DNA of 64,000 nt from positions 22,568,001-22,632,000 of the forward strand of contig NC_043014.1 of the NCBI RefSeq assembly GCF_006345805.1, read 5' to 3'. The notes under the pieces are model-generated. The model did no database searches and had not been told where the DNA came from. It saw only the letters and a program-made list of their open reading frames with translations. The DNA is from Octopus sinensis. Lineage: Eukaryota. The position numbers and the translations under genes were made by a program. Of the stretch, positions 11,031 through 55,059 are shown piece by piece (position 1 is the stretch's first letter; every line of letters starts with the position of its first letter).

Positions 11031-11063
11031 TAAGAAAGTTTGTTTGGTAAAGCACGTGGGTGA

Positions 11064-11464
11064 ATATATAAGAAAATAGTAAAGTGTGAAAAAACGACAG
11101 AAGGCTTAAATGTTAAAAAATATATATATTTGTGTCAAAATGTCTGGAGAATATTGGAAAAATTTTTTTTTTTTTTTTTTCCCTTTCCTTAAAATGACAT
11201 AATTTTAAAATTTTTTAAAGAAATTACCGGTTTCGCGTGTAGCTTTTCAAATTTCTTGTGACGAACGTCACAAGAAATTTGAAAAGCTACACGCGAAACC
11301 GGTAATTTCTTTAAAAAATTTTAAAATTATGTCATTTTAAGGAAAGGGAAAAAAAAAAAAAAAAAAAAAAAAAATTTTTCCAATATTCTCCAGACATTTT
11401 GACACAAATATATATATTTTTTAACATTTAAGCCTTCTGTCGTTTTTTCACACTTTACTATTTT

Positions 11465-11473
<9 letters not shown>
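11064..11473. repeat. Near-perfect ~200-bp-arm fold-back palindrome between (TA)n tracts
   Basis: Arms are reverse complements apart from poly-T/A length; apex gtgacg-aa-cgtcac at 11258-11271. Confidence 0.95.
11272..11311 (+). ncRNA. Minimal type-I hammerhead, U3-A8 core variant (mirror copy on - strand ~11218-11257)
   Basis: aagaaat-TTGAAAA-gc tacac gc-GAAA-ccgg-TA-atttctt: 7-bp helix I, 2-bp helix II, palindromic ACCGGT helix III, GUA site. Confidence 0.7.
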
Positions 11474-37700: not shown

Positions 37701-39699
37701 GCATAGAAGGTCAATAGTCTGAGAGCATCAACTTTGTTGCTGCTCACATCTATCTAGGATCATCAACTTACCATCTGGATCCGGGGTAGTTTGGGGGTTG
37801 GTGATAATCTTGATATCTTTTACTTGTTTCAGTCGTTAGATTGCAATCATGCTGGGGCACTGCCTCAAAGAATTTTTAGTCATATGAATCAACTCCTGCA
37901 CTTATTTTTTGCTAAGCCTGGTACTTATTCTATTAGTTACTTTTGCCAAGCTGCTAAGTTGGATGTAAACACACAAACATCAGTTGTCAAGTGGTGGTGA
38001 GGGACAAACATAGATATGAAGACATACACACATACATGCATCCCCCCACCACATGTATATACATATATTTACCAAGGTCATCTTTCAGTTTCTATCCACC
38101 AAATCCACTTACATGGTTATGGTCAGCCCAAGGCTATAGTAGAAAACACTTGCTCAAGGTGCCACATAGTGGGACTGAACCCAGAACCATGTGGTTAAGA
38201 AGCAAGTGTCTTACCATGCAGCTTGCACCTAGGTCTAAATCTTTCCAAAGCAACACTGTTGCTAATCCTTCTGATCCAGACTAGCTAAAAGATGGATGCT
38301 AGTGTGTGAGAATCAGAAATCTTAGTTTTGCTGTCTGCTACCACACCTGTGACTTGAGATCAAGATAACATTAAGTCATGTACATGTATGCCACCTATTC
38401 TGAATAAAGCTCTGTTGGCTGGAAAGGTGAAAGTTAGAAAGTTTACTTATCCAATTCCTGTGGAGGACAGGTGATCAAACTTTCCAGTTAGATGTAGGTG
38501 TTCCCTCAAGCAACACTTTGTAGAGTCTTTCATTCACTCTTCCTCTTAAAACTGCTATGTCTTTGGAGAATTGTTTTGAGACTGCTAGAGATCTCTTGAG
38601 TAGTTTCTGTGAAGTGTTTATGGGGTGGTATATTGCACCATTGTGTTATGATGGACTTCTGTGTCTATTGATGGTACTGTTGTGGTTTAAATAGCAACAA
38701 CAAGAATCCTTTCTGTTATAGGCACAAAGCCTAAAAGTTTGGAGGGATGGGGCTTGTTGATTACATCAATCCCAGTATTTGACTGGTACTTATTTCATTG
38801 ACCCCAAAAGAATGAAAGGCAAAGTCGACCTTGGTGATATTTGAACTAGGAATGTAAAGACTGACGGCATGCTGCTAAACATTTTGTCTAGTGCACTAAT
38901 GATTCTGCCAGCTTGTCACCTTAACAACAGACACAACAACAAAAACAACAATAATCCTTTCTACTAAAGACACAAGGCCTAAAATTTTGGGGGAGGGGAC
39001 TGGTCGATTACATCGACTCCAGTGTTTCACTGGTACTTAATTTATCAACTCTAAAAGGATGAAAGGCAAAGCTGACCTCAACAGAATTTGAACTCAGAAC
39101 ATAGCAACAGGCGAAATCCTGCTAAGTATTTCATCCAGCATGCTAATGATTCTGCCAGCTTGCTGCTTTAACAACAGCAACAATAATAACAACAATAATA
39201 ATGGTTTCAAATTTTGGGCACAAAGCCAACAATTTCAGGGAGGAGTTAAGTCAATTACATCGACCCCAGGGCTTAACTGCTACTTATTTCATTGACTCTC
39301 TAAAAGGATGAAAGGCAAAGTCAACCTCGGTGGAATTTGAACTCAGAACATGAACACATGAAATGCTGCTAATCCTTTTTCCTGGTGTGCTGACAATCCT
39401 GCCATCTCACCACTTCAATAATATAATAATATAGTTAGTTAGTTCTCTCTGTGTCATGAGGCACAAAAGGTCGCAATACAGTTTCTCTGACCAGCTCTGT
39501 TTTCTACAATTGTTCTTGTGTCATTCCAGTTTCTCCACCCTTTTATCTTTTTTCCATGTCAATGGTCCTTCACCATGTGGTTTTAGGACATCCTGCTGCT
39601 CTTTATCTCCCAAGCTGCCACTTAGTTGCTACCATACAATTGCCTTCTTGAGCTTGTCTGAGGACCTACCTGACCCAATTCCAGCAACTTAATCTTATT

Positions 39700-40200: not shown

Positions 40201-40874
40201 ACCATGAGAAACAGGAAGCTTGACATAACATATCACTTGACTTCAGTTGAGACTATTTCAAGGTCCCTGAAATAGAGGTCTCAAAAATGCGGCAGCTAAG
40301 AACAACAACTGTACCTGTAATCATTGGAGCTTTTGGAGCAATACCAAATGGTACTCTTGAAAACTATGGTCAAATATCAGATAATGTGTTGTCCACATCC
40401 TAAGAAAGACATTGTTAACTTGAAAATAGCCGAGTCTCTTAAAAGTATTCCAAAACTGAAATATTAGAAATTTAAAAGAATCTTAGTTCTCATATTCTTG
40501 TCTCCTTCCCTTATCATTATTACACATATGCAATATCCTCAGTACAATGTTCATCTTTCTATTACAATAGGTCTTTGGGTGAGACTTGGAACAATTCATA
40601 TAAAATAAAGCAACAACAATGTAAATAGATAAATAAATAAATAAATAATCACAATAATAATCCTTTCTACTAAAGGTACAAGGCCTGAAATATGTGGGGA
40701 GGGGACTAGTTGATTACATCAACCCCAGTGTTTCAACCCTGAAAGGATGGAAGGCAAAATCAACCTCAGCAGAAATTGGACACAGAATGTAGCAATGTGT
40801 GAAATACTGCTACCTTAATGATAATGATGATGATCCTTTCGACTACAGACACAAAACCCTGAAATTTTGCAGCC

Positions 40875-41168
40875 AGCTGTTCCTGCAGGGATAAAAATTT
40901 GTGCCTGCTAAATGGAGCTTGCATGTCCGAGATAATCATTTATAAAGCCACCATAGACTCTACAACCATTAATGGCACAGTTTCGACAAAGAAATATGTG
41001 GGCCTTACTGAGGGGAATTTCAAGGCCAGGTTCAATAATCACACCTTGAGCTTCAGGCACTGGGATAAAAGGAAAACGACCAAATTATCCAGTTACATAT
41101 GGTCCTTAAAAGATAAAGGTGTCAGTTACAACATCCATTGGAAGATCTTAGACAAGTTTAAGCCCTAA
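40875..41168 (+). pseudogene. Penelope-like GIY-YIG endonuclease fragment
   Basis: CSCRDKNLCLLNGAC..IIYKATI..YVGLTEGNFKARFNNH..SF..TKLSSYIWSLK. Confidence 0.88.
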
Positions 41169-41198
41169 TAATAATAAAAACGTATATATTAGGTAGAA

Positions 41199-41302
41199 TA
41201 ACAACACGTGTTTCGTGGCTATATTTAAGAAATGATTATAGTAAAAAAATTAATAGTAGTAGTAAAATCACTTCGATATAGATATAGCCACTCATCAGGT
41301 TA
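41199..41302 (-). ncRNA. Hammerhead ribozyme with ~77-nt stem II domain
   Basis: taac-CTGATGA-gtggctatat...atatagccac-GAAA-cacgtg-TT-gtta; 10-bp base of helix II plus gaagtgatt/aatcatttc; palindromic helix III; GUU site. Confidence 0.75.
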
Positions 41303-41377
41303 AAAATAAGCTAGAATAATAAAATAATTAATTAATAAATTAATAAATAAATATACTTTAAAATATATATATATACT

Positions 41378-41808: not shown

Positions 41809-43294
41809 AAAGGGAAGGTTTACGAAACTAAACAAAAGACGAAGGCAGGTTTACGAAAATAAACAAAAGATGAAGGCAGGTGGAGTACAAACAAAATGTA
41901 TTAGTATGGCGCTCAGGAATAGAAATAAAACAAGTCTTTTACATTTCAAGCCTACGCTCTTCGACAGAAAGATACACAGAAAAGAAACAAGGAGAGAAAC
42001 AAGGAGAGAAAAAAATTCCGTGTAGGGGCTAACGATCCAAAATATATATAAGATACTAAATATACATTAAGTGAAAACTAAAAACAATACTTAAATTATA
42101 CAATACTTTAAAATTAATTAATATACACAATGCTAGTACAAGCCATTAATATTGTAATCAAAATAAGAAATGGTTCAAATATAAACAAACTCATTAAATA
42201 AGCTAACTATATAATTAATATATATGTGTAGTTTCTATAGATTTAATATATCACTCAATAATATAGTTGACTAAATATCAATTAATATAATACCTAATTT
42301 ACTTAAATTTAATACTACTTAATAAATATACCACCTAATTATTAAATAATATATTGTCTAACAAAATTAATTCTCAAATTAAATTAAATGTAATACATTA
42401 GATCCCTTTATAAAAATAATAATTAATCATTCTAAATAAATAGATATAATAATTAATAACTATCATAACTTTTAACTATCAATATATATAATGGCGAAAA
42501 ATTATTTACTAATGGAAAGTAAGAAACATTTAAGCTCTATAAATTAAAGAAAGGTGCAAAAAAATTAGAACAAATGAACAATACACTATGAAAATATTCA
42601 ACTACAACCGACAGTCCATGACAAATTCAGTCAATAACAATAATAATAATAACAACAATCAAACTCAAAATAATACAAGATCCAAATAGTATTGATAAAC
42701 AAACTATGTTACAAAGTTCAACGATTAAATTAATCTATCTGGATTTTAAATGTATAAAAATATATGTTTTAGTGTCTTATTAATATACCCAATGCTATTA
42801 CTAGTCATGAATAATACAATCAAAATTAGGAAATGGTTCAAATATACACAAATCCATTATATAAACTAACTTTTTTATTAATCTATATGTGTAATATCTA
42901 TAGATTTAATATTTCACACGATAATAAAGTTGAACATAATATTAATTAAAATAAAAACAAATTTACTTAAATGTAATACTACTTAATAAAAATATTATCT
43001 AATTAATAAATAATGTATAGTCTAATGAAACTAATTCTCAAATTAAATTATATGTAAAACGTTAAATCCCCTTATGAAAATGAATAGATATCATAACTAA
43101 TAACGATCGTAAATAATAACTATCTAGAAACTATAAATAAATAATAATATTTCAACAACAATAATAATAACAATAATAATAATAATTTCAAACCCAAAAC
43201 GATTCAAAATCCAAATGAAATAGATAAACAATAAAACAGAAGATTATTTTCGTATATTTATTAATTAATCATTTTTATTATTGTAGTTTATTTT

Positions 43295-43396
43295 TAATCT
43301 GATGGGTGGCTATATTTATATCGAAGTGATTTTACTACTATTAATTTTTTTACTATAAAACATTTCTTAAATATAGCCACAAAACACATGTCGTTA
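43295..43396 (+). ncRNA. Decayed inverted copy of the long-stem-II hammerhead
   Basis: CTGATGG-gtggctatat...atatagccac-AAAA-cacatg-TC-gtta; core substitutions relative to the 41199-41302 copy. Confidence 0.6.
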
Positions 43397-43652
43397 TTCT
43401 ACCTAATATATACGTTATTATTATTATTATTTTACAATAATAAATCTCTGAACGAGATATAAACAGTAACCGCTCGACAACGTAAGGTGTATTAGCCATC
43501 TGAATGTGGCTAGCCACTGGGGGTGGGGTGGGGTGTTACTGATGCTTTTAGCCCCAGGCGATCAACGTCACCAGAAGGACTTTAGACACTATCTCAGTGC
43601 CCTTGTGTTATTTGCAAAGGGAGGTCATCCTCCCTCGAAGACCCGAGTACTA

Positions 43653-43697
43653 CATACGGACTATAGTTTCAAGGTAATTGCCTCTCGTCAACGCATG
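43653..43697 (-). ncRNA. Minimal type-I hammerhead ribozyme
   Basis: catgcg-TTGACGA-gagg caatta cctt-GAAA-ctatag-TC-cgtatg; palindromic ACTATAGT helix III, GUC site, position 3 is U instead of C. Confidence 0.75.
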
Positions 43698-44051
43698 GTA
43701 AGCACCGGTCTTCGATGAAATTTTCTTTATTATGATCAATAGATCTAACATAGAATGGGTACATTACAGGACAAAACAATTACAAAAATGCTATGCGAGT
43801 TTGAATGAAATTTAAAAATTACAAAAATTACAAAATTAAAATTTTATGTCACTTGAACGAAAACTTGGCTTACTTTTGCCTTTATCACGAGAACTTTTAG
43901 TGCGTATGTTTTCTTTTCATTTCTTTTTTATTATTATTAATTCTTTATTTTAAACAGTTATGTACAGTGAAAGGTAATGGGAGGTACCAGTTTCAATTTT
44001 GAACCCGGCAGCCTATAAATCCCAGCAGCTGATTTTTCCGTTCCTCGATGA

Positions 44052-47000
44052 TTAAGCTGGGTTACTCTCACCCACCTTTCTCATCACATCCTTCCAACGT
44101 TCCATATACTCTTTCTGTGGCAAGCTCCTCTTCTCCAACCCCATCTTGCTCTTCAGATGATATCCGAAGTATTTTAACAAACCGGGGCCAGAGATAAAGG
44201 ACCCTTTCACTAGACCTTCCACTCTAGTTCTCCATACACACTCTTTCAATACTGCCACCGTACAGTAAAAACAAGCCTTACCTTCCTTTGAGAGTCCAGT
44301 TGGCGGTATCATCTTAATCATAGATCCAGCCGACAGCTGTACTCATCCCTGATGCGACAACACGTGTTCCACGTAACTTATCAAGCCTGACAGCTCCCGA
44401 CATTGTACAAAAGCGTGTTGGACGGTTTCATCGTCCAACCCACATCTTGGACACGTCGGTGGCACTGACATTCCGTGCCTGGATAACTTCTCGCGAACAG
44501 GTAATGCATTCCTATAGCACTGCCAGGTCAGGGATTTTTAGTAATTATCCAAATACCCCGGCCTGAAAGTCTTCTTAAACAGGTTGGAGAGTTGATCCTC
44601 ATCGAACCCCAGAGCCCTTCCTAGGACGTCGTCATTTTTTCCTCCTACCAGCCCTTTATAGAACACCGAGGTGGTATTCCCGCTGCCGGCCTTACCCATC
44701 TTGTGGATCAGCCAGAGTGCCTGTCGGCACTCCTTCTGCCATGAAGTCAGTTTACGTCCTTTAATGAGACCGGGTGTAAATCCCTCCATAGAGGCCGGTC
44801 GCGGGAAGAATTCCTCTGCCAGCGAACTCCACACCTTATCATCCTCCAGGTAACACCAGAGGTGTCTCAGCCTCAACGCGTGTTTGCGCATCATTAGCCA
44901 AGGCATCCCCAGTCCACCCTTTAGCGGTTCCTGGCAACACACGGAGCGTCTCACAAGTGGCTTTCCTCCTTTCCACAAAAAGCGGAAAAGGAGTCGTTCC
45001 AACTTGTTTAACCACGAATCGGGGCAAGGCACGACGGTCAGGCGGTAGGTGACGACAGAGGCTATAAACATCTGTGCCACCTCCGCCCTCCCTTTCAAGG
45101 AAAGATGCCTTCCGGACCACTTCCGTACTATGGCATCTACCTTGCTCGTTACCTCGCTCCAATTCTTCTCCGTCTGGGAGTCTGGACCAAACCAGACTCC
45201 TAGCAATTTAACAGGACCATCCGTCCAGTGTCCAACAACACTGGACGGTATCTGCTTGTTCCTCCAGGTGCCGAGGCGCAAACCGATGGACTTGTCCCTG
45301 TTAACTTTTGCCCCTGCCACCGCTTCGTATCTATGGAGAGCACCTACTACCCGAGGTAGCTGTGTTCCGTTGGACACGATGAGGGTGACGTCATCCGCAT
45401 AGGCAGAAACAGGCTTACCGCATCCGATTTCATTAGGGTTGCCTCCCAACTTCTCCAGCTTCCGCAGCAATGGCTCAAGAGCCAAAACATACAGGAGCGG
45501 GGACAAGGGGCACCCTTGACGAACTGAACGCTTGATCGAAAACGGCTCCGTTAGGTAACCGTTTATCTGGACTGTGGACTTGATGCCGCTGTACATAGCT
45601 GAGATCCACCCGCAGAAGCCAGGGCCCAGCCCAGCCGCTTCGAGATTCGCCGCCAAGTACCGATGGTCTACCCTATCAAACGCTTTACTTTGGTCTAAAT
45701 GGACCAATGCCCCTCCTTTGCCGTCTAATTTCCCGACCCTATCTATAGTGTAGCGGAGAAGGTGAAGATTATCCTGGATCGATCTGCCTGGGATTGCACA
45801 TGTCTGTGCCTTCCCGACAAGTTTCTCCACGACAGCCGTCAACCTTTTTGCTAACACCTTGGCTAAAATCTTAAACTCTACATTAAGTAGAGTCATGGGC
45901 CTGTAATTACTAATACTGTCCCCCTTGCTTGGGTCTTTCTGGACCAGCGTCACAACTCCCCGACTCACAGAGCTGGGAATCCTCCCATTCTGTTGCCAGT
46001 TTGCATAGACGCTTGCCAGTATGTCCCCGAACAAGTCCGGCATACAACAATAAAATTTATAGGGTAGACCATCCAATCCCGGCGACTTTTCCCCAGCGCA
46101 CTCGGCCATAACCCCTCTTACCTCTGCGGGAGAGATCGATCCTTCACAGCACTCCGCCTCACCTGCCGAGAGCCGAGGCCCACCAGCTAGGAAGTCCTTT
46201 AAGGTCTCCCCACGCTCGAGCGGACCACCGCCCCCAAACAGCCGTGCGTAATGCTGGCGAAGGACCTTCTGCATCTCCCACTGTCCATAGATCTTGCGGT
46301 CCTGCTCGTCAGTTAAGGACATAATACAGGACTTTTTGCCCTTCTGACTCTCCTCACGACGGGCCCATCCGGCAACGTTAATACCTTCTCGTTTTCCTGC
46401 ACGTAACTTAGCTCTGACTCTACACCCCTCGTGCTTGGCGTTGAGGTGACGGTACAATACCGCTCTCGCTGCCAACACTCCGGATGCACAGCCAGATTCC
46501 ATAGCCTCGTCTAAGTTCTTAACTAATTCGCCCTCTATTCTAGTCCTATCTAAACTTAGCTACTTGCTAAATCTAATGGACTCCAAACGGATGGCTCTTT
46601 TGAGGGCGAGCCACCATCTATTATTAATGATGGTGCCACATAATGCCCTCTGTACTAATTCCTTAATCCGGGTACGGAAAGCTTCACAGGTCAAAATAGA
46701 CTTGTTCATCTTCCAGTACCCGGGACCTTGTCTATGGCATTTATCTACATGTACCTCACACGTTACAAGTTTGTGATCCGTGTAAGGCACAACAGAGAAT
46801 TGTGGACAGCTAACACTATTCCTATCTCGTTCCTTAACAAATACTCTATCTATGTACGATCTGTGTGAGCCGTCGTTATTACTCCACGTCCACTGTGGAA
46901 CGTTCGGCTCATCCAGTCGAAAACGGTCTACTAGATTAAAGCTCGCTAGTAGAGCCTTGAGGCCAGGATTCCCCTTCCTATCGCTCGAGCCTACACCATC

Positions 47001-47441
47001 CACCCGCGCATCGAGAATGGTGTTGAAATCCCCTACCAAGACTACCGTTTTGGACGTCACTAGAAAGTGCTCCAGTTCCCGATAAAAACCGGTCTGCCCA
47101 CGTCCGTTAGGAGCGTAGACAGCCACCAACCTGAAGGACTGCTTACTCACGTGCGTCACATCTAGGACAACCAGCCTACCTTCTGGGTCCAAAAAGACAG
47201 TACTTACCTGTAAGTCCAAGTTCTTCCTGAAAAGAACTGCCACGCCTGCACCTCCCCCTCGGCTAGGAGAAATAAATTTCTCGTAACCATTGAGAAGTGG
47301 TGAGAACGCTTGGGGTCCCTTCATCTTGGACTCGGTAACAATAGCTACTTCGATTCTATGTGAAATGAGGTCGTCACGAAAACAAGCCTGTTTCCATTTC
47401 GATCCCATTCCACGCACATTTATACAACCTAACTTAATCAT
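44052..47441 (-). pseudogene. Tx1 ORF2: APE endonuclease, RT and C-terminal Zn finger; three in-frame stops, no frameshift
   Basis: CINVRG, VYAPN, VGDFN, SYIDRV, TDHK; KSPGLDG, LDQSKAFDRV, VRQGCPLSP, YADD; CPRC..ETVQHAFVQC; ORFs 46560-47441, 44538-46502 and 44052-44321 share one frame. Confidence 0.93.
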
Positions 47442-47460
47442 CGAGAAAAAAGAAAATTAT

Positions 47461-48969
47461 TTACTCACGGTTGCGAGAGGGAGCCTGACAGATTCTTTCT
47501 GCCTGTCTCCCCCCACTCGCCGTTGCTGTTGGGTGTTTCACCGGCGTTGCCACCGGGCTCTGGGTTGGTGTGGCTGCCGGGCTAACGGGTAATTTCCCAG
47601 TTGTCACCTCCTGGGTGACATCCTTAATGAAGCCGGCTTTTACGTGGCTTTGTAAGGTTTTGTCTTTCCATCCTTCTTCGCCGACCCTTCCATATCGCCA
47701 CTCCGCTTCCTTCTCGGTCGCTTTGTAGCACCTGATCAGCGTCCTTGCTTTCACCCATGTTTCTACTCTCACGTTCTTTGTGGTGTATGCAATAATTTTT
47801 TCGTTGGGTTTAAACCCTTTTACAGTTGGGGGGTGGGGTTTGTTAAAGTGCTGGCCTATAAGTGTAGTACCGCCGGGGTGGGATTGGAGAATATTTTTAA
47901 TTTGTTCGTCTGCGTTGTTTTTTTTTTTTATACGGGTGGGGAGTCAGGGGTGATGGATTTTTTCCTTTTGTTGGACACGTTCGTAAATTCCATGTCTTCT
48001 TGTTTATTTGTTTTTGTTGCATTATTTTCCTCATCCTTTCCTTTCTCATTTTGCATTTCGTTCTTGTCTTCCTCCTTTTTGGAGTTCGACCTGTTATTTT
48101 TTCCTCCTTGTTTTCGCCAGCCGTTACTTTTTTCTCCACTTTGCTGCTTTCTGCGTTCTTCACAGCGTTTTGTGGGGGGGCGTTGCCCGCATTATTTTTT
48201 TTGTGCAAACGGAGCGAACGTGGCCCTTTTGCCCGCACTTAAAACATCTGGGCCTGCGTCCTTCCACCGAAACTCGTATGGAGTGCCCCTCCCCCACGAA
48301 GACTCTGTCTGGTAGGCTTTCCAACGTCGCATTTTCCGCCTGGATTATCATCTCCAGCTGCTGGCCTCTCCAGTGTTTTGCAATTTTTCTCTTCATACTT
48401 AAAATTGTCAATTTTGATTCAACATCAAAAATGACCGCTGTTGCCGCCCACATCACGTCGTAGCCCGTTGGTATATCTTCTAGGGTCACTTTTGCGGTTC
48501 TGCATCCTAAATATAAGGGTAGCAGTATTATACTCTCGTTTTTCAACGTTTGTGTCGAAATTTGCCTTGCTACTTCCGCCGTTTCAAAATGCGCCTCCAC
48601 TGTAGCGCTTCTTGCACCTCGGTTGACATGACTAACTTTACTCCATATTGGAGCCATACACTTTTCGACCATTTCGTTTTTCACGTCGGTCATTCGTTTT
48701 TCCTTGATATTGTACACCCTGTAGGTGACCATTTTTTCCTTTATTGCTTGTATAGTTTCGGGGGGCGGTACCAATCGTGTTTCTTCGCCACTTTTTTGCA
48801 CCAGCGATCTAAACTTGAATAATCTTTCCATTGATACCTCCATTTCTTCGACTTCGCCACCTACGGCGTCTGAAAAACTGGGTTTTGTCTGTGTTTCCTT
48901 TTGTTTAACAGTTGTTATACTTTCTCCCATCTCGGGAAAGTCTTTTTTTGAACTTAAGTCTAATTCCAT
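47461..48969 (-). pseudogene. Tx1 ORF1 (gag-like, CCHC zinc knuckle), frameshifted
   Basis: RPRCFKCGQKGHVRSVC knuckle, followed by a K/E-rich tail broken at homopolymer runs. Confidence 0.85.
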
Positions 48970-50161
48970 ATTAGACAACACAAACTTGTCACAAATGACA
49001 AGAGAATTTTTTTTTTTCCAAAAATAACCTATACAGGTTAAGAGTTCACACAAAACAGCACACAGAAATTTTCTACCCCGAAGGGCGAAAATTACTGGGT
49101 CAAAAACAGTTCAACAATGATATTACTTGTAACACGACAGAGTAGACAAACGGAAACGAACTCACACAACGATTTGCAGCAACAGAAAAATATTGGTATA
49201 CTCAGAGGAAAAATTAAAAAAACACCGGTCTTCGATGAAGGAGTCCCCTTGCAAATAAATATATAACGTTTTTCACAGCAACCACTGTCACTGATTTAGA
49301 AAAACTGTCTGAAAACAATAATAAATCTCTGAACGAGATATAAACAGTAACCGCTCGACAACGTAAGGTGTATTAGCCATCTGAATGTGGCTAGCCACTG
49401 GGGGGGGGGGGGTACTGATGCTTTTAGCCCCAGGCGATCACAGTGGTTGCTGTGAAAAACGTTATATATTTATTTGCAAGGGGACTCCTTCATCTCTCTG
49501 CTCCTTACCACTCTCTGTTCTTCCCATATGACTGGTACTTGACCAAGCATGATCTTTCTTGGCCTGACCACCACTCACACAACACCTTGTTTTCCTGTTT
49601 CCTGACTTTCATATTTGTAACCGCAAGGCTTCCACTTCACACGTCAGTTTAATTTAACTTGTCCTTTTAGTCAAAAGACACCTGTAGTTATTCTTGTTGT
49701 TTGTATTTGTAATCATATAACATTTTCTCTGTTTTCTCATTGTTTTTGTCCATGTTGTCATTCGCTTCCTTTCTTCCAAAAATTTAATGCCCTTAACTTA
49801 GATTTTTGGGACCTACCAATTTTGAACAGTCTCAAGTGTAACAGGCCAAAACTATAATGATTGGAAGCTTGACTGATGAATAGAAAGCCATGAATATTCC
49901 ATCCTGGTTTTCCTGTCTGTTTTTGTATCGTCCATCTGTCTGTATGTTTTCACTGTCATCTGTTATGTTCTTGTTCCATTTATATATATATATATATATT
50001 TGTTTATGTATTCGTTTTGCAAGATTCTTGATGTGAACTCATGTGTTGAAACAGATATTGTATTTGGGGAGGGTTATGTTGCCAGTTTAGCCAATGAAAA
50101 CACACACACTATTCATTCAGTGTTCGCTTGCTTCAGTTTTATTTCATATTAATTATATTTT

Positions 50162-50492: not shown

Positions 50493-50960
50493 TTATGGGG
50501 ATCTTATTCTGTCATCAGGTTGTGGTGTGTATGTGTGGGAGGGATGAGTGCAAGTGTTCCATTCTAGTTTTCTATTTAGACTAGGTTTATCTTCTATTAT
50601 GTGTGTGACTTCTGTAATTTGTCTAAGTGTTGTGCCTGTTCTATGTGTAGACAAGATTTTTACTTCTATGTTGTTGAGTGAGCCCCCGTGTTCCTGCTTG
50701 GCATGTTGGTATAGTATTGATGAACTCTTCTCTTCCTTGAGTTCCCTCCAGTGCTCATTAACCGTCTTTCCTAAACTACATGCTGTCTTGCTTACGTATG
50801 TTGTTGTCTTGTTTCTGCACTGTCTCTCAGTACATCTTATTCTATAGACTATGTTCCTAGCTTTACAGTTTGTTTGTGGGCTAACTCTACACACCACACA
50901 GTTCTTATCAGTAAAGGGATTCTATTAAAAGGGTGGGTTCTACCGAATAGGGATTTAATA
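50493..50960 (-). pseudogene. Penelope-like GIY-YIG endonuclease fragment
   Basis: CVVC..NCKARNIVYRIRC..C..TYVSKT..VNEH..ILYQHAKQEH..LRQITE..PSLNRKLEW. Confidence 0.85.
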
Positions 50961-52123
50961 GGGTTACCTAATCTTTCTACAACCACTTTCCGTGTTGGCA
51001 TGGGCAAAACAGTTTGACTGGAACAGGTAAGCAGGAGAGCTGCACTAGGTTCAAATCTGATTTGGTGTGATTTCTATGGCTGGATGCTATTCCTAATGCC
51101 ATCCACTCCAAGAGTGCAATAGGTACTTTTTACATCCCACTGGCATGGGTGCCATTTACATGATGGCATTAATGGCTATGATTACGATTTCATAGGTGCC
51201 ATTTAAATGGCACTGGAAATGGCCGCAACTACGATTTCACCTGGCTTAACAAGCCTTCTCAAGCACAGCATATTGCCAATGGTCTCAGTCACTTGTCATC
51301 GTTCCCATGAGGCCCAACATTTGAAGATTATGCTACTGGCTACAAGATTATACACAATAAAGACGAGAAGAGATGATTAGGATATGATTGCTTAAGTAGA
51401 GGTGGAGTAGGAGCCATTACAGTTGCTGTAGGAAGACAGAAAGATGAAACTGTGTGCTTGTGGATCTGAGGCTGGAACATTTCTGTGAGTGGCTTTATAA
51501 CAATCTGCTAGAAAGCTCATTTCTGAAAGTGATCTAGGAATGTTGGTGTGTGCAGCAATGACACCATATTGGGTGAGAGAGCAATGCTCTATTGTGGGTC
51601 CTGGGCTCATCAGAACATTGATAACTGTTGGGGGCTGAAGTATCTTCTGGTCTTGAAGATGACAGCCAGTCATTGGGTTACAGTCCTAGATATGTTAAAG
51701 ATAAGTTTTCACTGAGAGACCCAGTAATAGACCCAACAACTGGAGTGAGTGTGAGGGCTCTAGCTGAGTGTGGCTCCTGATTAAGAGAAATGTAGTGTGA
51801 TAATGTTTCTCTCTCAATATATATGATTGATTGATTGATTCTAGTTTCAGCTTATGAGCTGTGGCCATGCTGGGGCACCGCCATATTATATATTTATGTA
51901 TTCATGCATGCATGTATATATGTATGTATGTGTGTGTGTATATATATATATATATGAGTATATGTAAATATATATATATATTTATGTGTATATATATATG
52001 TGTGTGTATGTATATGTGTATATATGTCTGAATGGGCATATATATATATATATATTGATAGAAATGGTAAGACAACAAAAGAATGAAAGAGACCTTGATA
52101 TTATGTAAATAGAGGAATTTATC

Positions 52124-52307
52124 TGTAAATGTAATATGTGACAATCATTCGGTAACCATGATAAAACTCCGAGTTTTGGATGTCAGGACGGAAATCCACA
52201 CTCCCATCTCTTTAACTGAAGAGATGGTGGTATGGATTTCCGCCCCGATATCCGAAACTCGGAGTTTTATCATGGCTACCGAATAATTGTCACATATTAC
52301 ATTTACA
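52124..52307. repeat. Diverged fold-back palindrome with hammerhead-like motif at apex
   Basis: ~88-bp arms; + strand taa-CTGAAGA(52216)-gatgg...atcc-GAAA-ctcggag-TT-tta. Confidence 0.75.
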
Positions 52308-52324
52308 TATATATATATATATAT

Positions 52325-54892
52325 GAATAAAAAAATGGAGTTAACGCAGGTGTAATCAAATATTTTTACTTTCGACACATGTTTCGAAAATTCCACTGAT
52401 ACTATTCAAAAGAATAAATGGTATAAACAATGCAATCTTCTCCTCAGGAAAGTGAAAAAAAACGAAACTTGTCAATAAGACATTTTAGCAAAAAATGATG
52501 GATTTGTATAGTGATAGACAGAACGCTATTAATATTGTTTAAAAAAACGTTATATGATATAACGTCATAAGTAGCTAACAGAAAGAGTAAGGATATTAAT
52601 AGTGAATGTTAAATATAAAGGAAATTAAAGTTTAAACTATATATAATGATAGAGACTACTTATATGCACTAAATGTATGTTTTTGCCAATGCTTACATCT
52701 GTATGCTCGCTCTATAACCATGTTTACTAGAGTATTTAAAAAAAAAATAATGAAAAATAGCTCAGAATTACAGAGAAGACAGAATTTCTTGCCTTTGTCA
52801 TATGGTATCGAAATTGAGAGGATCAACCATTCTAAATGAAATTGTTTATTGTGGTCTTTTAAATCCCAAATCAGTTTGCTGAGACCGGTACTATTCCGTT
52901 TATTTCAATCCCTAAATGTTGAGTAATGGATAGAAATTCTTTTAGATAACTCTAACGATGTGCTTCCAATGTAAAATCGTACTTTATTACGAGTACTGAT
53001 TATACATTGGTATATAGAATTTTTAATCTTAGAGTTACTTGACATAAACTTAATTCTATTGGAATTGACTTCAGATACAATAACCTTGTTATTAATATTT
53101 CTAGAGGGTTGGATGGTATTAGCTAAAATTAATGTTAGTATTAGTAAATGTATTAATATTTAACAGTTTGTTATTATGAGAAGATATGATTTGCAAGAGA
53201 TTTTTTTGTGTTTGAAAAACCTATCCTAACCTTATGTGAATTGATTATAGAGTAATATCTAGAATTGTTTGGAAAATTCCTAGCAATAGCTTGACGAAAC
53301 AGCAGTGGGAGTTTAGATTTAATTTGCCTCCCGTAAGGAATTATTAACCAAATATTTTTACTAGTATTCATAGCGTAATTACTTTTGAAGGTGTTATATT
53401 TACTTTTAGATCGATAATAGGGGATTAAATAAGGGTTATCTGCTTTCATTCGCTTTGTATCGGTGCGTAAGTTATGTTTGTTATCAATAATTCTTTTACG
53501 ACTAGAAATCTTATCTACATTATTGAATTTACAATTAGACTGAGCAGAATCAATGTAGAAAATTTTTTCTGTATAACCTGTTTTGATTAAGGCAGAGTTA
53601 TAGAATTCAGCGTTATTATTGAAAATATCAACATTAGCAGATAATTTAGATAATCTAAATGAAATATTCTTAACTAAGTTCTTAGTAATTGCTCCAGGAT
53701 GATTACTAAATTTGCTAATGTACTTAAGATTGGTCAACGGTTTATGATATGGGAAGTAAGAGTCACTGTGTAAATTAAGCGTAATATCTAAAAAGTTGGC
53801 CTTCGTCAGATCGTCATCAAAAACGATTTTTAAGCCCATTCTACTGAAAAAATTAACTAAACTATTCTTAACTTTTTGTACCTTTTGGTTGGAAACATTT
53901 TGGAGGTAAAGTAAACAATTATCACGATATAGACCTCCATAAATTTTAGAGAACTCTTCAGCCATTTCAAAAAGAATATATATACAGACCAAATCAGCTA
54001 TCTGAGCTGAATCAGAACTTCACATTGGTATATCAAAACTATCTGGTGTGTCTTTACGGACCCACAACTTATCATCAAATTTAATAATAGATCTTCTGGC
54101 TGCCAACACAACATTAATTTCTTCTCGGGTGAGACCAGCTTTGTTATGAGCAAGCCAAAGTGCCTTATTAAGTACTATTGGATTAATAGCTGAATAAAAA
54201 TTGGAAATATCAAACTGGATAAACTTTGTACTCACCTTATTGTTAATAGAACTAAACCAGTCAACTACTTCAAATGAATTAGTCCATAAACTAAGTTTTA
54301 ATGTTTTGATTAAATTAGGAATATATTTATTTAGTTTATTTTTACTAAGGATACCGATGTCAGAGCTAGAAGGGCAGATAAGCCTTAATGATGGGTTAGT
54401 AAAAAAATTTGGTTTGTGATCCTTCAAAATGAACTGAAGTTGCTTAGGAACAAGTGGTTCTGTCTTCATTTGTAGGTTATATTTCTCCATGATTTTCATA
54501 GCCTCAATGTTGGCTTTCTTAAGGATTCTTTTATCAGCAGTTTTATACTTTTTCTGAATTTCTTTTTTAAGTAATTCCAAATAATAATCTTTATAAAGTT
54601 TGTACAGATTTCCAGTCTTATCAGATTGAACCAACATAATATCCATAGAATTGATTTCCTTGGTGATGTTGCGAAGATACCTCAGATGTTTATTTCTTAG
54701 TGGTGGTCGTTGAAATTTTACATTTCTCACAATAGACCAGAGATCATCTTCAAATTGCTTCAATCTTGGGTTAGGCAGCGGACTATTTTTAGATTTAAAT
54801 AACTTGTTAAACTCAGATGTTTTATCATTAGTGTGTTGTTGAGTGTCATTTTTGTCAAAGAAAAAGGTAAGCCATCTTATATATATATGCAT
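52325..54892 (-). mobile_element. Penelope-like retroelement (YRDD-type RT + GIY-YIG), degenerate
   Basis: LKDHKPNF..RLICP, FIQFDISNFY, FDIPM*S.DSAQIADLV, GLYRDNCL, NFLDITLNL, PYHKP; C-terminal FYIGST..STGLSKLIWDLK..CLLC (~52690-53000). Confidence 0.92.
52368..52453 (-). ncRNA. Canonical-core type-I hammerhead with long stem II in PLE 3' region
   Basis: actttc-CTGAGGA-gaagatt g cattg...cagtg g aattttc-GAAA-catgtg-TC-gaaagt; 6-bp helix I, GUC site. Confidence 0.85.
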
Positions 54893-55059
54893 ATTATATT
54901 ATCTATCTATTTCTTTATCACGTAAACATAGTACCGATAGCTTCATCTTCCTGTTTGTCTTAAGATCATGCATATCTGTTAATTGCAATGTTTTATTTAT
55001 TTTTCCTAATCAAGGTTATCATTTCGTTCATTCATTCTCTCTAAATTTCTTTAACCATA

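What the first reader, a model, noticed from the sequence alone, without database searches (positions are those of the whole stretch)
43608..43719. ~361-nt hammerhead unit folds into a long rod: candidate circRNA-forming non-LTR retrozyme
Seen on the - strand of the reconstituted empty site: helix I of the HHR (catgcg/cgtatg) continues through ggtgct/agtact, tcgaagacc/ggtcttcga, ctcct/gggag and ttatttgcaa/ttgcaaataa. This gives an imperfect rod capped by the ribozyme. The unit is non-coding, tandemly repeated and ends in a 55-bp inverted piece (49440-49494), resembling PLE-type insertions. Known: metazoan non-LTR retrozymes are tandem few-hundred-bp type-I HHR units that yield circular RNAs and are thought to be PLE-mobilised. 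Inference: a cephalopod retrozyme family. The core here is UUGACGA, so this copy may be impaired.
Basis: partly seen in the sequence, partly recalled or inferred. Interest (0 to 1): 0.75.

Follow-up and report, generated by a model that had tools for sequence, protein, structure and literature searches.

The report
Broken ribozyme-carrying repeat in a cephalopod
This is a damaged copy of a small non-coding jumping element that carries a self-cutting RNA motif, a kind already known in corals, mussels and salamanders and here apparently seen in an octopus-like animal, split in two by a larger retrotransposon.

Summary
Real, but a known kind. A 5.5-kb L1/Tx1-type LINE with a 17-bp target duplication splits a 361-nt non-coding unit; contigs from two other DNA runs skip the LINE, confirming the empty site. 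The minus strand carries a canonical metazoan type I hammerhead (6-bp helix I, 4-bp helix II, palindromic helix III; 0 hits in 40 shuffled windows). All five stems named are there (z -7.1). Two claims are overstated: the rod is 131 of 361 nt and the rest folds no better than shuffles; and the locus holds 1.35 units with one ribozyme, not an array. The partial tandem, 55-bp inverted end and (ATT)n target match Penelope-like (PLE) insertions. Variants occur across 12 studies and 7 organism labels. Best reading: a dead copy of a non-autonomous, PLE-mobilised repeat that works like a non-LTR retrozyme; two core pairs are wobbles. Circles, cleavage, arrays and covariation were not shown. No cephalopod retrozyme turned up in two literature searches. 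The scan noted a rotifer hammerhead pair before, not this family. Open lead: whether the LINE targets the ribozyme stem.

The parts
43434..43719 (-). 3' 286 nt of the 361-nt unit; the insertion's 3' end is at about 43434
   Evidence: variants laid in four runs
49240..49314 (-). 5' 75 nt of the 361-nt unit, beyond the LINE; holds the outer 5' arm of the rod (49240-49258)
   Evidence: joint across the LINE
43653..43697 (-). type I hammerhead: helix I 6 bp, core U3 U4 G5 A6 C7 G8 A9, helix II 4 bp with G10.1.U11.1, helix III 2 bp plus palindromic loop; predicted cut between 43659 and 43658
   Evidence: geometry compared with PMC4209133
43608..43719 (-). long imperfect hairpin extending helix I, together with 49240-49258; 131 nt in the empty site; 39 Watson-Crick, 3 G.U, 0 A.C, 3 other mismatches and 8 gaps between the arms
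49315..49440 (-). upstream, 5'-truncated second copy (0.35 unit), equal to 43434-43564 except in the G-tract; no hammerhead
49440..49494 (+). 55-bp perfect inverted piece of 49234-49288 at the 5' end of the insertion
43703..43719 (.). left copy of the LINE's 17-bp target-site duplication, in the 5' arm of the rod
49223..49239 (.). right copy of the 17-bp target-site duplication
43720..49222 (-). apparently full-length L1/Tx1-type LINE: ORF1 with CCHC knuckle (48160-49110), AP endonuclease (46560-47456), RT (44538-46559); in-frame stops; same orientation as the ribozyme, 3' end 61 nt upstream of the predicted cut
   Evidence: the Tx1 label is recalled from the domain layout and not tested by a tree
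43410..43433 (.). (ATT)n tract at the 3' junction, the end of a neighbouring inverted-repeat element; probable target site
   Evidence: ATT preference of a PLE enzyme in PMC11167929

Best explanation
A dead genomic copy of a multicopy, non-autonomous, hammerhead-bearing repeat that works like a metazoan non-LTR retrozyme and is moved by Penelope-like (PLE) enzymes. SHOWN: 361-nt non-coding period, canonical type I hammerhead geometry on the minus strand, a 131-nt hairpin extending helix I, a 1.35-unit partial tandem, an inverted 5' piece, an (ATT)n junction, variant copies in other runs, PLE remnants in the same window, and a later LINE insertion. INFERRED from the known class: source arrays elsewhere are transcribed as multimers; two ribozymes pair through the palindromic helix III and cut after GUC; the 361-nt monomer is closed by a host RtcB-type ligase; a PLE RT/GIY-YIG protein nicks AT-rich DNA and starts reverse transcription inside the RNA near 43434. 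INFERRED from this locus: the template was longer than one cut monomer, because the insert runs 487 nt across the cut site. It was an uncut multimer or a circle copied more than once round. If the inverted piece came from second-strand priming on the same linear RNA, the template spanned about 696 nt. This copy is inactive: one ribozyme, U3.G8 and G10.1.U11.1 wobbles, and a LINE in the stem.
For: Descriptor hit with 0 of 40 shuffles at this geometry. The geometry equals the 'canonical' metazoan type of PMC4209133, not the PLE minimal type, an example of which lies at 52447. Strand-biased fold, G.U 3 against A.C 0. Helix III self-dimer at -8.6 kcal/mol, while the monomeric active fold costs 5.7 kcal/mol. 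Size and GC match the class (150-450 bp, under 50% GC; mussel 350-390 bp). Partial tandem plus inverted 5' copy is the PLE signature. A PLE enzyme cuts at ATT, extends both strands, starts internally and uses uncut RNA. No PLE coding match in the unit (best E 0.14). 20 of 24 listed runs hold the stretch, in 12 studies (10 without the two best-holder studies) and 7 organism labels. Indel variants inside the unit appear in 2 to 12 separate contigs per DNA run, and one empty-site contig has depth 2856 where listed long contigs of that run have 29-53.
Against: No array or second ribozyme at this locus, and no head-to-tail joint among the 15 of 253 joints displayed (the aligner skipped 43380-43444 as repeat). 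The core is non-canonical here and I could not see the family's letter at 43691 (1494 variant rows not displayed). Rfam is blank. Covariation is unshown: a relative's 3' arm seen as loose ends has, by eye, 5 changes in paired positions, 3 tolerated and 2 needing unseen partner changes, and the second run's version has 2 more breaks. In Xenopus only 1 of 9 predicted retrozyme dimers cleaved in vitro. The G-tract difference between the two copies fits a mixed multimer better than a single circle.
Confidence: 0.68

Rival explanations
1. The unit is a pseudo-LTR (or internally deleted derivative) of an autonomous PLE, spread as linear partial tandems, with no circular RNA stage; the ribozyme is inherited and dispensable.
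For: Ends and target are PLE-like. In Xenopus, 24 of 57 retrozyme families match Repbase elements, mostly PLE ends, so the two classes grade into each other. Cleavage is not needed for PLE insertion in vitro. A 22-codon ATG frame runs from 43499 to the 3' end, as pLTRs often include the first codons of the ORF (read by eye, not significant). Only one ribozyme here.
Against: Only 230 non-coding nt lie between the two repeats; no similarity to any PLE remnant in the window by blastn or tblastn. The ribozyme has the canonical geometry, not the PLE minimal one, whereas the PLE remnant at 52330-54898 has a long helix II.
Confidence: 0.22
2. A SINE-like or MITE-like linear repeat whose hairpin arose as a DNA inverted duplication around a vestigial ribozyme, with no RNA function.
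For: The same insertion made a 55-bp inverted piece. The arms share 39 Watson-Crick matches. Two conserved pairs are wobbles. Some contigs stop matching at 43606 or 43629, as 5'-truncated copies would.
Against: The hairpin is centred exactly on the ribozyme and is strand-biased. No tRNA-like head or Pol III B box. The head-to-tail partial tandem is not a SINE feature (recalled).
Confidence: 0.08
3. Chance motif or assembly artefact.
For: Rfam blank; the G-tract difference could be a consensus error.
Against: 0 of 40 shuffles; z -7.1 across a join whose arms lie 5.5 kb apart; the empty site exists in two other DNA runs.
Confidence: 0.02

Closest known systems
Metazoan non-LTR retrozymes (Cervera and de la Pena 2020, PMC7229834; abstract passages and sections 13, 14, 17 read; supplement not readable), especially the Mytilus galloprovincialis family
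   Same: Mollusc host, unit 361 nt against 350-390 bp, GC under 50%, non-coding, canonical type I hammerhead, self-paired circle model, PLEs in the same genome.
   Different: This copy has one ribozyme with two wobbles and is LINE-split; circles and cleavage are unshown; helix III is the weak, palindromic, dimer-requiring kind described there for amphibians; no sequence comparison with the mussel family was possible.
Vertebrate non-LTR retrozymes as non-autonomous PLE derivatives (bioRxiv 10.64898/2026.07.22.740005; parts 1-3 of 5 read, supplements closed)
   Same: Few-hundred-bp unit with a type I hammerhead; solo 'monomer' copies are a recognised class; proposed PLE origin and mobilisation.
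   Different: That survey has 35 species and no mollusc among the classes listed. Its 'active' definition needs two consecutive units with ribozymes, which this locus lacks.
Pseudo-LTRs of endonuclease-bearing Penelope-like elements (PMC4209133 parts 1-2 read; PMC8557442, PMC11167929 and PMC3846280 passages read)
   Same: Partial tandem, inverted 5'-truncated copy, AT-rich/ATT target, type I hammerhead with palindromic helix III.
   Different: No RT/GIY-YIG ORF between the repeats; helix I 6 bp, helix II 4 bp and no bulge, against 4-5 bp, 7-8 bp and a bulge in PLE minimal hammerheads.
Newt satellite 2 hammerhead repeats (as described in PMC6155905, passages read)
   Same: Tandem unit of similar size, unstable helix III, dimer mechanism, internally looped extension of helix I.
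   Different: Amphibian; large arrays shown and transcribed; the helix I extension here reaches about 50 bp.

Membership tests
metazoan non-LTR retrozyme | canonical type I hammerhead geometry (helix I 6 bp, II 4 bp, III 1-2 bp with palindromic loop) | tested here: met
   definition
metazoan non-LTR retrozyme | intact catalytic core (C3-G8 or U3-A8; G10.1-C11.1) | tested here: not met
   This copy has U3.G8 and G10.1.U11.1; the natural variant described is U3-A8. The family consensus was not visible.
metazoan non-LTR retrozyme | non-coding unit of 150-450 bp, GC under 50% | tested here: met
   361 nt, 45% GC, longest ATG frame 30 aa (minus) and 58 aa (plus)
metazoan non-LTR retrozyme | tandem units with at least two ribozymes | tested here: not met
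   1.35 units and one ribozyme at this locus. Other loci could not be read: no genome held; head-to-tail joint not among displayed rows.
metazoan non-LTR retrozyme | multicopy family in the genome | tested here: met
   Indirect: variant contigs and a depth-2856 empty-site contig; 12 studies, 7 organism labels. No copy number can be given.
metazoan non-LTR retrozyme | stable self-paired circle in which the ribozyme is not blocked | tested here: inconclusive
   Circle z -4.7, but 64% paired against 61% in shuffles; helices I and II form in the MFE, and the full active fold costs 5.7 kcal/mol.
metazoan non-LTR retrozyme | expressed as linear and circular monomer RNA | not testable with these tools
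   Only contigs were available, and no holder is on record as RNA.
metazoan non-LTR retrozyme | self-cleavage in vitro (monomer or dimer) | not testable with these tools
   needs a bench assay
metazoan non-LTR retrozyme | covariation supporting the stems | tested here: inconclusive
   Only one arm of a relative was seen, as 30-nt loose ends; no homologs in six collection scans.
metazoan non-LTR retrozyme | no LTR, primer-binding site or polypurine tract | not tested
   No long terminal repeat is apparent and no tRNA was found; PBS and PPT were not searched.
metazoan non-LTR retrozyme | PLEs present in the same genome | tested here: met
   RT and GIY-YIG remnants at 52689-54637 and 40872-41156 (tblastn E 1e-35, 1e-9, 2e-12)
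autonomous Penelope-like element | RT and GIY-YIG ORF between the pseudo-LTRs | tested here: not met
   230 non-coding nt between the repeats; tblastn best E 0.14
autonomous Penelope-like element | partial tandem with inverted 5'-truncated copy | tested here: met
   definition
autonomous Penelope-like element | minimal hammerhead (helix II 7-8 bp, helix I 4-5 bp, bulge before helix II) | tested here: not met
autonomous Penelope-like element | AT-rich or ATT insertion site | tested here: met
   The 3' junction abuts (ATT)n; no target duplication seen by eye between the flanks.
target-specific Tx1-clade LINE (the inserted element) | placement in the Tx1 clade by RT phylogeny | not tested
   Domain layout only; hits are unnamed.
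target-specific Tx1-clade LINE (the inserted element) | independent copies inserted at the same target site | not testable with these tools

The most novel reading that the evidence does not exclude
The inserted LINE is a target-specific Tx1-type element that homes to the ribozyme stem of this repeat family. It sits in the same orientation, with a 17-bp duplication, 61 nt upstream of the cut site. In an array it would lie between two hammerheads, so it could be co-transcribed with the array and released, perhaps circularised, by the host repeat's ribozymes: a retrotransposon parasitising a retrozyme. Tx1-clade elements are one of the three groups known for target specificity, and transposons are among known targets of site-specific elements (PMC4640811, passages). 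The evidence is a single insertion.
Probability: 0.07. Interest if true: 0.72.

Novelty: new member of a known kind. Interest (0 to 1): 0.32.

Why it matters
If the family proves active it extends ribozyme-made small circular RNAs to cephalopods; I found no report of this in two full-text searches, though the supplement of PMC7229834, which shows other invertebrate examples, could not be read. This locus is also a tidy footprint: a protein-free hammerhead unit with PLE-type ends in an invertebrate, which bears on the open question of which enzyme moves retrozymes (the 2026 preprint says it did not test non-vertebrates). A hairpin of about 50 bp in an animal with heavy A-to-I editing (recalled) would be a natural place to look for editing of retrozyme RNA. 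None of this changes the class.

Tried and rejected
No genome is held for this window, so arrays, consensus and covariation could not be computed. Rfam: 0 hits at gathering score in 64 kb; 4 unrelated weak hits up to E 10 in 43400-43760. Two DNA patterns, each scanned in metagenome, genome and viral collections: 0 matches in 6 scans. The LINE RT in viral contigs: none. No RNA holder listed. X12 and X18 are only guessed RNA and are contigs, so they say nothing on expression, strand, ends or circles. Summed contig depth is 10-30 times lower over 49240-49314 than over 43434-43719; I do not use this, since contig depth cannot rank parts and the stretch lies at the edge of the reference, but it would matter if real. 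Tandem Repeats Finder does not report the unit (it is split by the LINE). No tRNA, no Pol III B box, and a bacterial promoter scan at chance level and not relevant. The effect of a lone C3U change: no paper with data was found, so 'impaired' rests on the C3-G8 pair being required. Literature on Tx1 targets in octopus: nothing relevant. The join was one base off; all folds quoted come. I considered that ACAATAATAAATCT at 43434 continues the GIY-YIG frame broken at 41166 (a microhomology); I dropped it because the same letters lie inside the unit at 49315 and the right flank does not continue that frame. Earlier findings by sequence and by place: none.

Full report
WHAT IS THERE. The stretch 43434-49494 is a nested insertion. 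A minus-strand LINE occupies 43720-49222, with ORF1 (CCHC knuckle, E 0.0005, just under the Pfam cut-off), AP endonuclease and RT, broken by stops. It is flanked by an exact 17-bp duplication at 43703-43719 and 49223-49239. Its RT's best named relative is from Argonauta hians at 60% identity, so the host is probably an octopod; no genome is held. Removing the LINE leaves, on the minus strand, a 55-bp inverted piece (49494-49440), 126 nt that repeat the unit's 3' end (49440-49315), and one full 361-nt unit (49314-49240 plus 43719-43434) ending at an (ATT)n tract. The empty site is not just a reconstruction: of 4 runs laid, both DNA runs have a contig that skips the 5520 nt (depth 83.5 in X2, 2856 in X4).

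THE RIBOZYME. The motif at 43697-43653 has helix I of 6 bp, helix II of 4 bp with a 6-nt loop, and helix III of 2 bp closed by a palindromic tetraloop. It is the only hit of a tight descriptor in the window; 40 shuffled windows gave a mean of 0.05 relaxed hits and none with this geometry. Cervera and de la Pena 2014 (PMC4209133, parts 1-2 of 4 read) call exactly this the canonical metazoan type I form, active as a dimer, and distinguish it from the minimal form of PLEs. The helix III palindrome self-pairs at -8.6 kcal/mol, while forcing the monomeric active fold costs 5.7 kcal/mol. Two conserved pairs are wobbles in this copy: U3.G8 and G10.1.U11.1. The natural variant in the papers read is U3-A8, and breaking C3-G8 abolishes cleavage in a PLE ribozyme. 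I found no data on C3U alone, so impairment is inferred. Rfam does not detect the motif.

THE ROD. All five stems are present. The hairpin is far beyond chance (z -7.1, 0 of 300) and favours the minus strand (plus z -4.2), with 3 G.U and no A.C mismatches (small numbers). It covers 131 of 361 nt. The remaining 230 nt are not distinguishable from shuffles (z -1.4, 10 of 150), and the circle model is branched, with 9 hairpin loops and 64% pairing against 61% in shuffles. The title's whole-unit rod is therefore not supported. [quoted passage not shown]

THE FAMILY. 20 of 24 listed runs hold 43434-43719 (15 with half the words or more), from 12 studies and 7 organism labels; the two best-holding studies may include the source. 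Within the unit, the DNA runs show indel variants in several separate contigs each (for example 7 and 10 contigs at 43560, 10 and 12 at 43520). Runs X12 and X18, of two organism labels, share a diverged version that matches 43580-43630 and remains recognisable on both sides. This shows a multicopy family with subfamilies but gives no copy number. By eye, that relative's 3' arm has 7 substitutions, 5 of them at paired positions; 3 are tolerated and 2 need partner changes that I could not see. Covariation is open. No head-to-tail joint appears among the 15 of 253 joints displayed, and the aligner skipped 43380-43444, so arrays are neither shown nor excluded. Six pattern scans of public collections found nothing, as expected for collections of microbes.

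HOW IT GOT THERE. A partial tandem with an inverted 5'-truncated copy is the described PLE signature (PMC8557442, passages; also PMC3846280). The one PLE protein studied in vitro cuts at ATT, extends both strands, starts inside the RNA and uses uncut RNA (PMC11167929, passages); each point matches this locus. PLE remnants lie nearby, one with its own long-helix-II hammerhead at 52447 and no DNA similarity to the unit. The insert spans the cut site and is 487 nt long, so its template was not a single cut monomer. The inverted piece starts 149 nt beyond the point where the direct part stops, counted in the next turn of the unit. That is the geometry of twin priming on a multimer of about 696 nt or on a circle, though fold-back of the cDNA end gives the same picture (inference). 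The two copies of the overlap are identical except in a G-tract, where they differ by 5 nt and by internal Ts. A 5-nt length variant there is seen in other contigs. This slightly favours a mixed linear multimer over one circle.

WORKS LIKE versus IS. It works like a non-LTR retrozyme in ribozyme type, size, GC, absence of coding and PLE association (PMC7229834, sections 13, 14, 17 and passages). This copy fails two tests: an intact core and two ribozymes in tandem. I therefore do not file the locus as an active retrozyme. It corresponds to the solo 'monomer' class of the 2026 preprint (10.64898/2026.07.22.740005, parts 1-3 of 5), which also argues that retrozymes are non-autonomous PLE derivatives and found cleavage in only 1 of 9 dimers. 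It is not an autonomous PLE: only 230 non-coding nt separate the repeats. Probabilities: retrozyme-like family 0.68, pLTR derivative without circles 0.22, vestigial 0.08, chance 0.02.

NOVELTY. Searches for octopus with hammerhead ribozyme (4 papers listed of 5) and retrozyme with cephalopod (1 listed of 2) gave no report of such a family. The library lacks most subscription papers, and the supplement of PMC7229834 with further invertebrate examples could not be read. A mollusc family of the same size is published, so this is a new member of a known kind. The one bold reading left open is that the LINE targets the ribozyme stem. Tx1-clade elements are known for target specificity (PMC4640811, passages), but the clade label here is recalled from domain layout and only one insertion is seen, so I give it 0.07.

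VERDICT. Observation partly confirmed; interpretation partly supported; interest 0.32.

Noticed in passing
window 52330-54898 (-): Broken Penelope-like element (RT and GIY-YIG) with its own hammerhead at about 52453-52368: intact CUGAGGA core, long helix II, palindromic helix III. 0 hits of that descriptor in 30 shuffles.
   Followed up: partly
window about 11040-11470: Long inverted repeat inserted in (TA)n with a central palindrome; each arm carries the same 40-nt hammerhead-like motif with a U3-A8 core and 2-bp helix II (11279 +, 11250 -). Possibly a head-to-head pLTR pair or a MITE.
   Followed up: partly
window 41166-41340 and 43256-43429: 91% identical inverted repeats of about 175 bp around an AT-rich interior with 663-nt direct repeats; the element interrupts a GIY-YIG remnant (40863-41168), and its (ATT)n end is the junction of the ribozyme unit.
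   Followed up: partly
window 50493-50921 (-): A second GIY-YIG-like remnant of a different type, followed near 50520 by CTGATGA, perhaps the start of a truncated hammerhead (read by eye).
   Followed up: no
window 43720-49222 (-): The LINE begins with a T-run, ends without poly(A) just after AATAAA, and belongs to a large diverged family; the stop at 46560 differs from most relatives.
   Followed up: partly
window 38696-39372 and 40644-40812: Tandem copies (period 247) of a SINE-like repeat; family not identified by any search.
   Followed up: no
window 52101-52330: Inverted repeat with 112-nt arms, 84% complementary, 6 nt apart, next to the PLE remnant's 3' end.
   Followed up: no
window 43434-43499 (-): An ATG frame of 22 codons runs to the unit's 3' end (30 codons in the tandem); it could be a relic PLE ORF start but is within chance.
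   Followed up: no
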